Assembly: GCA_965216325.1 (NCBI GenBank)
Contig: OZ244160.1
Span: 736,001-800,000, forward strand
DNA length: 64,000 bases
Origin: Coraliomargarita sp.
GTDB lineage: Bacteria; Verrucomicrobiota; Verrucomicrobiia; Opitutales; Coraliomargaritaceae
Reading direction: 5' to 3'
Positions within the stretch are counted from its first letter, which is position 1. Each line of letters starts with the position of its first letter. A program made the position numbers. Shown here piece after piece: positions 24,201-26,896 of the stretch.

Positions 24201-26896
24201 CCGAGAATCGCGTCTTTAAAGATCAGAAGTAGAATCGCGGTGACCGCACCCAAGCCAGAAAAGAAGACCAAGGGTGATTTATCCAAAATCACTGAGAGAA
24301 TGAAGATGAGGCCGATCAGGTTGATGACTAGCTTTGCAGCCTGTGTTGCGCTCTTTGCCGGGTATTTCTTACCAATTGGGCCGCGTTGCCAGACATCGCG
24401 GAGGAAATTCAGTGCTGCGTCCAAGACGAACAACACAATGATGATGATGTAGGTGTTGAGGACGACATTGATCAATTTGAGCAGATTCGGGTGCTCTGCA
24501 AATAGGCCGGGGGCGACGAAGTGGATGACTGCGGCTGGAACGATATGTGAGAAACGAATAAAGACGTTGTCACGGATCAATAGGTCGTCCCATTCAAACT
24601 TTGTTTTGCGGATCAGCGGATGAATTGCTGCTTCGATGAACTTTTTCGCCATATAGTTGGCGATCAGTGCGATTGCAACTAGACCGAAAAATACGATGCC
24701 GAGCGAGACGAGTGATGAAGCGCGTTCACTTAGGGCATAGTTTTGGAGCCAAAGGGATAGATTCTGAACCATTACAGCTTCTGGTTATGTTTGGCTTTGG
24801 TGGGATGACAACTCCTATGAGTGATAAATCTAGGCGAGAATATCTTGCTGCGCGCCCAATCGAAGTGCAGCTTTATCCCTAATGCGCATATTAGCTACAA
24901 CTGTCATCTGCATACTCGCACTCGGACTGGGAACTCTCTGTGCGGAAGAGAATGCTGGCAAGCTCCACCGAGTGTTGGATGGTTATCGGAAGGCGTATGG
25001 AGGCTTCCGTGCGTCGGAAATTTTAAAGTCGGTCACACTGCGCGGTGAGCAGTTGCAGGGCGATCAGAATTATGAATTCCTCTTGCGTAAAAAACGGCCG
25101 AACTCGATCCGTTACAGCCTAAGCAACCGCTCGAATTCCGTTGTTTGTGGCTATGATGGTGAAGTTGGCTGGCAGCGAGTGGATACCGGGGGAGTGGTTA
25201 CCATTTCTGACTTGGAGGGAATTGCCTTGGAATCCTTGATTCGAGAGGCAGAGTTCGACGCGCCATTATTGCGCTATTTCTCGAGATCTGGAATTCGTAT
25301 CCGCTTGTTGGATACTGCGGTCTTGGAGGGGCGTCCCACGTATCAGCTGGAAGTTGTCGAGCGTGGGGCTCCAACTGCGCACTACTATCTGAGCATGGAT
25401 GCCTATCAGATTGTGAAGAAGGATCTACTGAATGAGGAGGGCGAGGTTGTGCTTGAAACGAACTACCGCAATTATCGTGAAGTCGATGGCATTCCATTTC
25501 CTTTTGAAATCGAGACAAAACGTAATGGTAAACGCATCTCGTTGACGAAAGTTGAACAAGTTGAGGTGAATCCTGGCCAATTCAGCTTCTATTTTCGCAA
25601 GCCGACTTATTAGAGCTTAATTGTTGCCGATCGAATCATCTCCGAGTTCGCCCTTGAGCTCTCGGTCGATTCTCAGTTGTTCGATTTCATTTTGCAGGAA
25701 ATGTTTAAAGTGCTCGAAGCGTGCGTATATGCCGCGTGTTTCTAGTAGCTGCTGTTTCACTTCTCCTGATGCGCATAGTGTCGCAATCGAGATGTCGAGT
25801 GCGCCTTCCGGGTCTTTAATCGTCTGTAAAAAGCTAAGCACTTCCTTCGGAATCGGTGCGCCAAGTTCAATTTGAGTTTCTACGAGTCCGATGATTTCAG
25901 TCTGTATCGTATTCAGATCGCCAGGACTCGCGTCATGCTCGCTCAGTATTGGATGGATGCGTGCTTTACGGTAGGGCAGTTCGGTCGTGATTCCGTCTAA
26001 CTGGACGCGGGCGAGGCCTTGTAGCACCAGATTCGAGGTGCCGTCTTCATTCGTGTGGCAGGCTCGCACGACGCCGATTCCTGCAATCGAATGGGGTGGT
26101 TCATCGGCTCGATTGTCTTGGTCGCTGTCGTCAAGCGCAGCAATCGCGAAGATCCGGTCACCAGCCAGCACTTCGTTGAGCATGGTGCGGTAGCGCGGTT
26201 CGAAAATGTGCAGCGGCAGAATCGCTTGCGGAAACAGCACCGCGTTGCTCAGCGTCATGACAGGAACTTCGCGTGGGATCTCGATGTGCTGTGTCATGCT
26301 GCGTGAGTGGTTTCGTGGAGGATGATTACGGCCTAGTTCCATTCGTCCGGGTGGAGTTTCATCGGTTCTGGATCCGAACACTCTGCATAATACACGGCCA
26401 TGCGGAAATAGCGAATCCGGTCCTCCGGTAAGTTGTCGGCTTTGGCTCTAGCTTCTTCGAAGAGCACCTCAGGGGCACGCCCCTGAAGCTGGTAAATTTC
26501 CCGAATGCCTATGTCGATCAAGTTCCGGACGGCTGCCACATCCATACGCGGAATGCGCATGAGCGCAGAGTTGAGCGCCTCATAATCGACTTTCTTTTTC
26601 TTCTTAGTTGGGACCATCGTGGGCAGTTGAGCGCAGTGAACTTCATTTTGCAACTACGACATCATCGCATTTGTCGAGCCACTGCGCTGTGTCACGCCGG
26701 TGAGACATGGCGCGCAACTGTGACACGATCTGTCACACCTTGACTCAGTTTTGAGTGGGGTCTCCAGCGCTTGGATACTGGACTTGTTTTTAATCTTGTT
26801 GCAAATCAAGTAGATAGGATTTGTGAGGGGCCTTGGCACTGGCATTGCTATTGGGCTGGCATGGGTAAAATCATTGGAATCGACTTAGGCACAACG

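What a model noticed while it worked through the whole genome (the two positions that open the first line are those of the whole stretch)
26680..26863. Sigma54-driven, leaderless heat-shock regulon (dnaK-groESL, clpB, hsp20, mcsAB-clpC) with a TGTGACA enhancer
dnaK-groES-groEL, clpB (1452798), hsp20 (2693605) and mcsA-mcsB-clpC (1035449) all have a sigma54 -24/-12 promoter. At dnaK and clpB the GC of the -12 box lies 13-14 nt before ATG, so transcription should start 1-3 nt before the start codon (near-leaderless mRNA). Upstream of dnaK lie an AT-rich IHF-like tract and repeated TG(T/A)GACA boxes at about -170 to -110, a predicted enhancer; the orphan AtoC-type bEBP g00833 (944179) is the candidate activator.
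Evidence so far: Own sites: TGGCAC-N5-TTGCT at dnaK, TGGAAC-N5-CTGCA at clpB, TGGCAT-N5-ATGCA at hsp20, TGGCAC-N5-TTGCA at mcsA. The site sits at the same distance from ATG in 16 of 16 dnaK loci (15 other family genomes; 14 by regex, 2 read by eye as AGGCAT..TGCT) and 11 of 11 clpB loci (9 by regex, 2 by eye). TGTGACA/TGAGACA repeats recur in the dnaK loci. The mcsA site is seen by eye in 6 of 6 relatives, about 120 nt upstream, so with a leader. A strict exact pattern (promoter + 11-15 nt + dnaK start) hits 12 of the 26 order genomes whose dnaK start matched, in 8 families; reversed control 0. dnaK and clpB are the only genes with both a site at this distance and 3 or more enhancer boxes. HrcA not found in [...]
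(Added by a program. Inside this text positions count along the whole contig: contig position 736,001 is position 1 of the stretch shown here. "Call 12" and the like, gene names such as g00115 and contig names such as C1 are that model's own, and its searches are not shown. The text may have been shortened before it was handed on; [...] marks where a part breaks off. The agent that wrote the report below was given it as the finding of a first reader that could run no searches.)

Follow-up and report, generated by a model that had tools for sequence, protein, structure and literature searches.

The report
Sigma-54 chaperone switch, leaderless dnaK
In this bacterium and across its phylum (Verrucomicrobiota), the main protein-folding genes appear to be switched on by an ATP-driven sigma-54 activator and its partner kinase rather than by the textbook heat-shock regulators, and in its order the dnaK message probably begins right at the start codon.

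Summary
dnaK has a sigma-54 -24/-12 site with 12 nt between GC and ATG; by the nifH geometry +1 is the A of ATG. The site is in 48 of 48 family loci and 70 of 80 order loci, and is mostly leadered elsewhere in the phylum. Distances are bimodal: 12-16 or 27 and more, none between. The enhancer is best described as a 17-bp NtrC-type palindrome shared by dnaK, clpB and hsp20 but not mcsA. g00833 is the likely activator: it is the only one in several genomes, the palindrome sits before its own gene, and orthologues lacking the HTH go with palindrome loss. It has a probable PAS kinase partner, so it is not a true orphan. Corrections: hsp20 is leadered, mcsAB-clpC is poorly supported, grpE-dnaJ has no site. 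No TSS, binding or heat data exist; RNA contigs were uninformative. Sigma-54 chaperone promoters are published for Flavobacterium, and this scan noted them (Akkermansia, planctomycetes) and leaderless sigma-54 genes (myxobacteria) on other DNA. New variant of a known kind.

The parts
26688..26725 (+). Distal enhancer half-sites: TGTGTCA 26688-94, TGAGACA 26701-07, TGTGACA 26719-25 (about -173, -160, -142 from +1)
   Evidence: Sequence; family half-site peaks at about -172, -160, -140, -129 and -120, with 12-bp and 31-32-bp spacings
26731..26747 (.). 17-bp palindrome TGTCACA-CCT-TGACTCA, centre -122; predicted activator dimer site, degenerate here (one change at an otherwise invariant G)
   Evidence: 9.5 bits on a matrix trained on hsp20 relatives only; centre -121 to -123 in 73 of 149 dnaK loci
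26784..26822 (.). AT-rich tract with an IHF-like site at 26804-26816 (one mismatch to the recalled consensus WATCAR-N4-TTR), about -57
   Evidence: IHF-like match in 26 of 149 dnaK loci vs 3.4 expected, peak -57/-58; an IHF-like protein is encoded in the genome
26833..26839 (+). Sigma-54 -24 element TTGGCAC
26845..26849 (+). Sigma-54 -12 element TTGCT (GC = -14/-13)
   Evidence: numbering from the nifH scaffold in PMC5505868
26858..26863 (+). GGC|ATG: predicted transcription start on the A of the start codon (26861), 0-nt leader
   Evidence: Inference from geometry, bimodal distances and pyrimidine-purine signature; no TSS data
26861..28813 (+). dnaK (Hsp70), 650 aa
   Evidence: start fixed by conserved N-terminus
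28828..28856 (+). GC-rich hairpin with weak U tail between dnaK and groES (possible partial terminator or mRNA stabiliser)
   Evidence: -23.6 kcal/mol, z -5.2; a hairpin in 26 of 30 family loci, none in 4 short gaps; best sigma-54 score in any gap 7.6
28905..29180 (+). groES
   Evidence: directly after dnaK in 30 of 30 family loci
29222..30868 (+). groEL
   Evidence: named from its sequence
30913..30950 (+). Intrinsic terminator-like hairpin with U run closing the unit
26333..26617 (-). Divergent small gene, weak Cdd1-like (PF11731, 24.8 bits, cut-off 25.5); shares the intergenic region
   Evidence: beside dnaK in 19 of 29 family and 6 of 26 order loci

Best explanation
A classical enhancer-dependent sigma-54 promoter drives dnaK (groES-groEL by read-through), and the same wiring drives clpB and the hsp20 pair. 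Sigma-54 RNA polymerase sits closed on the -24/-12 site. A cytoplasmic PAS histidine kinase (contig 1506568-1507812, minus) phosphorylates the receiver of the REC-AAA-HTH activator g00833 (contig 944179-945555). The activator binds the 17-bp palindrome TG(T/A)G(C/A)CA-N3-TG(G/T)C(A/T)CA and flanking half-sites at about -120 to -170, an IHF-like protein bends the DNA at about -57, and the ATPase opens the promoter. In this order transcription starts on the first base of the dnaK start codon, so the mRNA is leaderless; hsp20 keeps a leader and SD. The activator also binds just before its own gene (probable autorepression). Shown: sequence elements, conservation, co-occurrence, gene presence and absence. 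Inferred: TSS position, binding, phosphotransfer, and that the signal is proteotoxic or heat stress.
For: Site conservation: 48/48 family, 70/80 order (59 at d=12-17, 11 leadered), 20/28 other orders, 8/8 other classes; 30/30 in the Akkermansia genus. rpoN in 91/91 order genomes, even 0.8-Mb ones; HrcA 0/91; own genome has no CtsR, no RpoH over cut-off, only a Fic-like MerR fusion as MerR protein (named by eye) and no CIRCE, HAIR or CtsR box. Leaderless: nifH scaffold puts 12 nt between GC and +1; of 151 dnaK sites (164 loci) 115 lie at d=12-16, 0 at 17-26, 36 at 27 or more; both ATG and GTG starts sit at d=12; pyrimidine at -1 in 71/73 vs 61% genome-wide; in leadered promoters a pyrimidine-purine step lies at GC+12|13 or +13|14 in 62/77 (11-18 of 77 at other positions) and 29/30. 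Enhancer: hsp20-trained palindrome at 9 bits or more in 114/149 dnaK, 24/26 clpB, 27/27 hsp20 vs under 1% of shuffles, 33/36 dnaK loci outside the order. Activator: 20 of 91 order genomes have one activator match; in all 16 examined it scores best against g00833; palindrome before its own gene in 18/30 and 11/11 more order loci vs 27 of 2748 own genes; recognition helix G[IVM]SRRTLHRK in 30/30; six orthologues without HTH in two families go with dnaK keeping the promoter and lacking the palindrome in 6/6. Kinase adjacent in 14/30 and 14/25 loci; PAS-HisKA-HATPase, no membrane segment.
Against: No TSS, binding or heat-induction data. The own dnaK palindrome is degenerate (9.5 bits). Several genomes keep the HTH but lack a palindrome at dnaK (G104, G138, G142; also G160, G116, G120 where the activator was not examined). 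The HTH losses may be one event. In 19 small or single-activator genomes the palindrome preceded the activator in only 2 and no kinase was adjacent; outside the order 0 of 14 (there the gene mostly follows the kinase). G117 has promoter and palindrome but only a weak g00833 match. clpB sites are weak (21/30 at 3 bits or more), some lie at d=18-22, and 6 of 19 short-distance clpB and 16 of 113 dnaK sites carry an SD-like motif between GC and start, which hints at a second, leadered transcript. grpE-dnaJ, htpG and clpX have no site in this genome. Kin are not independent, so counts overstate.
Confidence: 0.68

Rival explanations
1. Same promoter and activator, but the system is not a heat-shock switch: it sets chaperone levels from a metabolic, redox or growth-phase signal read by the PAS kinase, or runs nearly constitutively.
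For: No signal is known; grpE-dnaJ and htpG lack the site here; reduced genomes keep an HTH-less activator that looks constitutive; in Flavobacterium the sigma-54 chaperone promoters were induced on blood, osmotic stress and plasma (PMC9723704 passages).
Against: Targets include clpB and small Hsps, which are stress-inducible genes by established knowledge; no other heat-shock regulator was found; chlamydial atoS-atoC rises on heat shock (PMC8762339 passages).
Confidence: 0.14
2. The sigma-54 promoter is real but is served by another activator (the NtrC-like protein at contig 1729532-1731064 or lineage-specific ones), and the palindrome belongs to a different DNA-binding protein.
For: Three activators are encoded here; exceptions where HTH or orthologue and palindrome do not match.
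Against: Near-complete genomes (G005 100%, G138 99%, G104 and G115 97%) have only the g00833 orthologue yet keep the promoter; palindrome before g00833 itself; palindrome lost with the HTH.
Confidence: 0.08
3. dnaK is mainly made from a longer, leadered sigma-70 transcript; the sigma-54 complex next to the ATG is a secondary start or a roadblock, as in chlamydial tandem sigma66-sigma54 promoters.
For: SD-like motifs inside the GC-to-ATG stretch of some clpB and dnaK loci; tandem promoter at chlamydial hrcA-grpE-dnaK.
Against: No sigma-70-like site upstream of dnaK in this genome; upstream gene is divergent; full activating layout (enhancer, IHF-like tract) is conserved; 97 of 113 short-distance dnaK sites have no SD-like motif.
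Confidence: 0.07
4. The motif is a repressor operator or a chance match that only resembles a sigma-54 site.
For: The -24/-12 stretch is partly palindromic; loose scans give many hits (858 at 9 bits or more).
Against: Spacer and flanks vary while GG-N10-GC is fixed; same site at variable leader lengths across the phylum; start-site signature 13-14 nt downstream; rpoN and an activator in 91/91.
Confidence: 0.02

Closest known systems
Sigma-54 (motif SM4) promoters of protein quality-control genes in Flavobacterium psychrophilum (PMC9723704, passages read)
   Same: Mapped starts with -24/-12 elements before dnaK, groES-groEL and clpB; activator-dependent chaperone control outside Proteobacteria.
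   Different: There grpE-dnaJ, lon and htpG are included and no activator or enhancer was assigned in the passages read; here grpE-dnaJ and htpG lack sites, dnaK is predicted leaderless, and a specific two-component activator and palindrome are assigned.
Predicted sigma-54 regulons across 33 classes (PMC12316311, passages and supplement searches)
   Same: Chaperone and Clp genes predicted under sigma-54; COG3880 (the McsA family by my recall) noted as enriched in Opitutia.
   Different: Chaperone enrichment is reported for Bacteroidota and Planctomycetota, not Verrucomicrobiota; 'leaderless' does not occur in the main text; no enhancer or activator assignment. Its web database, not seen, covers Opitutia and Akkermansia genomes and may list these sites.
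NtrB/NtrC-glnAp2 and nifH-type enhancer-dependent promoters (geometry from PMC5505868; the rest own knowledge)
   Same: -24/-12 site, IHF-like tract, 17-bp Fis-type palindrome with 3-bp centre, REC-AAA-HTH activator with GAFTGA, cytoplasmic PAS kinase, autoregulation.
   Different: Targets are chaperones; mRNA predicted leaderless; g00833 is below the NtrC, AtoC, ZraR and GlrR family cut-offs.
Chlamydial CtcB/CtcC (AtoS/AtoC) sigma-54 system (PMC7482065 and PMC8762339, passages)
   Same: PVC kinase plus activator pair; a sigma-54 promoter at the hrcA-grpE-dnaK operon; atoS-atoC heat-induced; CtcC ends near residue 386 like the HTH-less forms here (383-409 aa).
   Different: Chlamydia keeps HrcA/CIRCE and uses sigma-54 mainly for late genes; orthology was not tested.
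HrcA/CIRCE, sigma-32, CtsR and HspR heat-shock controls (own knowledge)
   Same: Same target genes.
   Different: None of these regulators or operators was found.

Membership tests
Sigma-54 enhancer-dependent promoter | TGGCAC-N5-TTGC with GG-N10-GC spacing, conserved | tested here: met
Sigma-54 enhancer-dependent promoter | rpoN and an activator with GAFTGA in the genome | tested here: met
Sigma-54 enhancer-dependent promoter | Upstream activator site 80-170 nt from the start | tested here: met
   Palindrome centre -122 at dnaK, -100 and -151 at hsp20; binding not shown
Sigma-54 enhancer-dependent promoter | IHF site between enhancer and promoter | tested here: inconclusive
   Enriched (26/149 vs 3.4; 9/28 vs 0.7) but consensus recalled, own site has a mismatch, and only one IHF-like gene, below cut-off
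Sigma-54 enhancer-dependent promoter | Transcription depends on rpoN and activator ATPase | not testable with these tools
   Needs genetics or in vitro transcription
Leaderless mRNA | 5' end on the first base of the start codon | tested here: inconclusive
   Geometry and signatures fit; no raw RNA reads were available
AtoC (NF008469) | Score over the curated cut-off | tested here: not met
   482 vs 714 bits
NtrC (TIGR01818) | Score over the curated cut-off | tested here: not met
   g00833 412 vs 559; the second activator 495
Chlamydial CtcB/CtcC | Orthology of kinase and activator | not tested
   No chlamydial sequences were on hand; architecture only
HrcA/CIRCE regulon | hrcA gene and CIRCE | tested here: not met
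   0/91; no CIRCE with up to 3 mismatches
CtsR regulon (mcsA-mcsB-clpC) | ctsR gene and heptad repeat | tested here: not met
   (own genome only)
Heat-shock regulon | Induction by heat or misfolded protein | not testable with these tools
   No condition-resolved RNA data

The most novel reading that the evidence does not exclude
Verrucomicrobiota as a whole run their proteostasis response through one conserved two-component pair, a cytoplasmic PAS kinase and an autoregulated sigma-54 activator possibly orthologous to chlamydial CtcB/CtcC, in place of sigma-32, HrcA, CtsR and HspR; Opitutales additionally place the start on the dnaK AUG so that DnaK is made from a leaderless mRNA in a genome that otherwise shows no leaderless signal, letting it be translated when normal initiation fails.
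Probability: 0.35. Interest if true: 0.8.

Novelty: new variant of a known kind. Interest (0 to 1): 0.6.

Why it matters
How Verrucomicrobiota (including the gut bacterium Akkermansia and abundant marine and soil Opitutales) control their chaperones without HrcA or sigma-32 was not addressed in the papers found. This work names a promoter, an operator, an activator and a kinase, each testable in cultured strains. A phosphorylation-gated, ATP-driven heat-shock switch and a sigma-54 leaderless dnaK message would both extend textbook schemes, though sigma-54 control of chaperones itself is already published for Flavobacterium.

Tried and rejected
RNA test: I predicted +1 at L468:1413 for a locus whose DnaK is identical to a protein named Akkermansia muciniphila. 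Only assembled contigs were served. Four RNA runs from four studies covered the dnaK coding part but their contigs stopped at scattered places (1517, 1524, 1539, 1652), two with loose ends, and none covered 1321-1516: no information on the start. Genome-wide sigma-70 leaderless signal: TANNNT is flat upstream of 2459 predicted starts and SD is weak (home-made gene caller; a first version, covered only 52% and was dropped). mcsA as regulon member: not supported. CRP (needs a 6-bp centre; here 7) and the GlrR-type TGTC-N10-GACA reading (recalled; fits one pair in the own locus only) were rejected as the general motif. A separate sigma-54 promoter for groES: none at 8 bits or more in 30 gaps. rpoN, grpE-dnaJ, clpX, htpG upstream regions: no site. 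The careful tree did not finish; the quick tree has only two outgroups and long branches. Supplements of PMC12316311 hold no per-gene COG table by my search. PMC9104697 was seen only as a search listing. No structure or complex prediction was run, as a textbook kinase-receiver pair would pass by likeness.
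Full report
What is there. The window holds dnaK (26861-28813), groES and groEL, with a small divergent gene upstream. 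Just before dnaK lies TTGGCAC-N5-TTGCT; the GC (26847-48) is followed by 12 nt and the ATG. Further up are an AT-rich tract and boxes at 26688-26747. The genome (3.06 Mb, one contig, 99.98% complete) encodes one rpoN, three REC-AAA-HTH activators and two HU/IHF-family proteins. HrcA and CtsR were not found, no sigma factor reaches the RpoH cut-off, and the only MerR protein looks like a Fic fusion by eye. Named records with the same promoter-dnaK pattern are nearly all Verrucomicrobiota, mostly Opitutales: 76 of the 80 listed (120 or more found, scan cut at its limit).

Is it more than chance? A matrix trained on relatives only ranks the dnaK site first among non-coding sites (23.1 bits). I scored 164 dnaK loci (6 more gave no start). 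Family: 48 of 48 have the site, 47 at d=12-13 (d = bases between GC and start codon). Other families of the order: 33 at d=12-13, 26 at 14-17, 11 leadered, 9 under threshold (6 of them degenerate sites at d=12-16), 1 too short, of 80. Other orders: 8 at d=12-17, 12 leadered, 8 under threshold, of 28. Other classes: 8 of 8 leadered. Reverse-strand controls at 10 bits or more: 2/48, 4/79, 2/28, 0/8. In the Akkermansia genus 30 of 30 loci (of 58 with a match) have it, all leadered. rpoN is in 91 of 91 order genomes and HrcA in 0 of 91. So the promoter is phylum-wide; the short distance is mainly an Opitutales trait. Kin are not independent, so these counts describe breadth and are not a test.

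Where does transcription start? The nifH scaffold of PMC5505868 runs from -35 to +28 with its mismatch at -12/-11 right after the GC (passages); counting gives GC at -14/-13 and 12 nt before +1. With d=12, +1 is the A of ATG. Three sequence signals agree. Of 151 sites scoring 8 bits or more, 115 lie at d=12-16 (73 at 12), none at 17-26 and 36 at 27 or more; SD-like motifs occur in 14/85, 11/30 and 23/36 of the d=12-13, 14-17 and long classes. GTG starts sit at the same place as ATG starts (13 of 73 at d=12), with a pyrimidine before them in 71 of 73 against 61% genome-wide. In leadered promoters, where no codon constrains the sequence, a pyrimidine-purine step lies at GC+12|13 in 40 and at +13|14 in 22 of 77, against 11-18 at other positions, and in 29 of 30 Akkermansia loci. 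The genome shows no general sigma-70 leaderless peak, but four genes have sigma-54 sites of 10 bits or more at d=12-13 against 0.7 expected. This remains inference: the RNA runs served were contigs only and gave no start.

The enhancer. Half-sites in the family peak near -172, -160, -140, -129 and -120. Refining the motif on hsp20 relatives alone (starting from the dnaK matrix) gave a 17-bp palindrome, TG(T/A)G(C/A)CA-N3-TG(G/T)C(A/T)CA, the shape of an NtrC/Fis-type dimer site (own knowledge). It scores 9 bits or more in 27/27 hsp20, 114/149 dnaK and 24/26 clpB upstream regions against under 1% of base-shuffled controls, but in only 2/13 mcsA regions. Outside the order 33/36 dnaK loci have it. 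The own dnaK copy (26731-26747, centre -122) is degenerate at 9.5 bits. An IHF-like match is enriched near -57 (26/149 vs 3.4; consensus recalled). A genome scan for promoter plus palindrome returns dnaK, hsp20, clpB and one unexplained candidate, besides weak overlapping hits.

Regulon membership. hsp20: site in 28 of 28 loci, always leadered (d=30-82), SD-like in 24. clpB: weak sites, often GGAA at -24, 21 of 30 at 3 bits or more, mostly d=12-16 but some 18-49; 6 of 19 short ones carry an SD-like motif inside the 12-16 nt, which hints at a second transcript; clpB was not found at the threshold in 30 of 91 order genomes. mcsA: site in 13 of 30, no enhancer or IHF signal. grpE-dnaJ, htpG, clpX and rpoN: no site in this genome. 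groES follows dnaK in 30 of 30 family loci; 26 gaps hold a hairpin with a weak U tail and none a sigma-54 site, so groESL is probably reached by read-through, perhaps attenuated.

The activator. g00833 has an orthologue-level match across the order and in 70 of 71 phylum genomes at E 1e-105 or better. Twenty of 91 order genomes show a single activator; in the 16 examined it scores best against g00833 and groups with it in a quick tree, and 14 of these 16 keep a dnaK site of 8 bits or more. The palindrome lies just before g00833 itself (contig 944161-77, 17.1 bits), in 18 of 30 and 11 of 11 further order loci, against 1.3% of shuffles and 27 of 2748 own genes; it was found in only 2 of 19 small or single-activator genomes and 0 of 14 outside the order. 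The recognition helix is nearly invariant (30/30; 22/25). Six orthologues in two reduced-genome families end after the AAA lid, and all six dnaK loci keep the promoter but lack the palindrome; one origin of the loss is not ruled out, and G104, G138 and G142 keep the HTH without a palindrome. A PAS-HisKA-HATPase kinase without membrane segment is adjacent in 14/30 and 14/25 loci (0/19 in the small set); its own copy lies at contig 1506568-1507812. g00833 is under the AtoC and NtrC cut-offs.

Mechanism. Signal (unknown, probably proteotoxic) to PAS kinase, to receiver phosphorylation, to activator oligomer on the palindrome array, IHF-assisted looping, sigma-54 opening, and a dnaK mRNA that starts at its AUG; the activator represses its own gene. 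Elements and co-occurrence are shown; binding, phosphotransfer, start site and heat induction are inferred. Confidence 0.68 for the whole; about 0.93 for a working sigma-54 promoter, 0.8 each for leaderless dnaK and for g00833.

What is known. Sigma-54 promoters at dnaK, groES, clpB, grpE, lon and htpG are mapped in Flavobacterium psychrophilum (PMC9723704, passages). A PSSM survey reports chaperone enrichment in Bacteroidota and Planctomycetota and COG3880 in Opitutia (PMC12316311, passages; supplements searched; web database not seen). Chlamydia has a tandem sigma66-sigma54 promoter at hrcA-grpE-dnaK and heat-induced atoS-atoC (PMC8762339, PMC7482065, passages). TSS maps of Bradyrhizobium and Sinorhizobium do not link leaderless mRNAs to RpoN in the passages read. 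My searches found no paper on sigma-54 leaderless dnaK or on this activator in Verrucomicrobiota; subscription papers are not covered. This scan had noted sigma-54 dnaK promoters in Akkermansia (activator unknown), planctomycetes, Bacteroidota and Omnitrophota, and leaderless sigma-54 genes in myxobacteria; these are unchecked AI notes except where retested here.

Verdict. A real, conserved feature; a new variant of a known kind. The new parts are the phylum-wide wiring with a named operator, activator and kinase, the natural HTH-loss comparison, and the predicted leaderless dnaK. Interest 0.6.

Noticed in passing
window 25617-26297 (-): A stand-alone Lon substrate-binding-domain protein (PF02190) follows the divergent Cdd1-like gene, while the genome shows no full Lon protease (only a 21-bit Lon_C hit).
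   Followed up: partly
window 28828-28856: Hairpin of variable sequence but conserved structure between dnaK and groES in 26 of 30 family loci; may set the DnaK to GroESL ratio.
   Followed up: partly
L225 (contig 173189 -), L226 (contig 2625492 -), L227 (contig 548506 -): Three more genes with sigma-54 sites 12-13 nt before the ATG and no palindrome: a circularly permuted ATP-grasp protein and two unnamed genes; leaderless sigma-54 starts may be wider in this lineage.
   Followed up: partly
L445-L451 (G149, G087, G125, G147, G083, G123): 0.8-0.9 Mb genomes keep rpoN, a dnaK sigma-54 site and one activator without HTH, of about the length of chlamydial CtcC.
   Followed up: partly
contig 2543892 (-) of the own genome: Sigma-54 site (8.3 bits) with a palindrome (10.3 bits) 195 nt before a gene for a probably secreted protein; possible further regulon member.
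   Followed up: no
L266 and L269, L289, L313: Four non-Verrucomicrobiota records (Polyangiaceae, two Hyphomicrobiales, one Deltaproteobacteria) match the promoter-dnaK pattern; real or chance not tested.
   Followed up: no
window 33676-35332 and L228: Sigma-54-like sites without the palindrome lie before window genes at 33753 and 35316 (nitrite-reductase-like by eye) and before a probable ammonium transporter, likely targets of the NtrC-like activator.
   Followed up: no
L002:2552-3412: A periplasmic-binding-protein-like gene (PF12849) follows g00833 in 15 of 30 loci.
   Followed up: no
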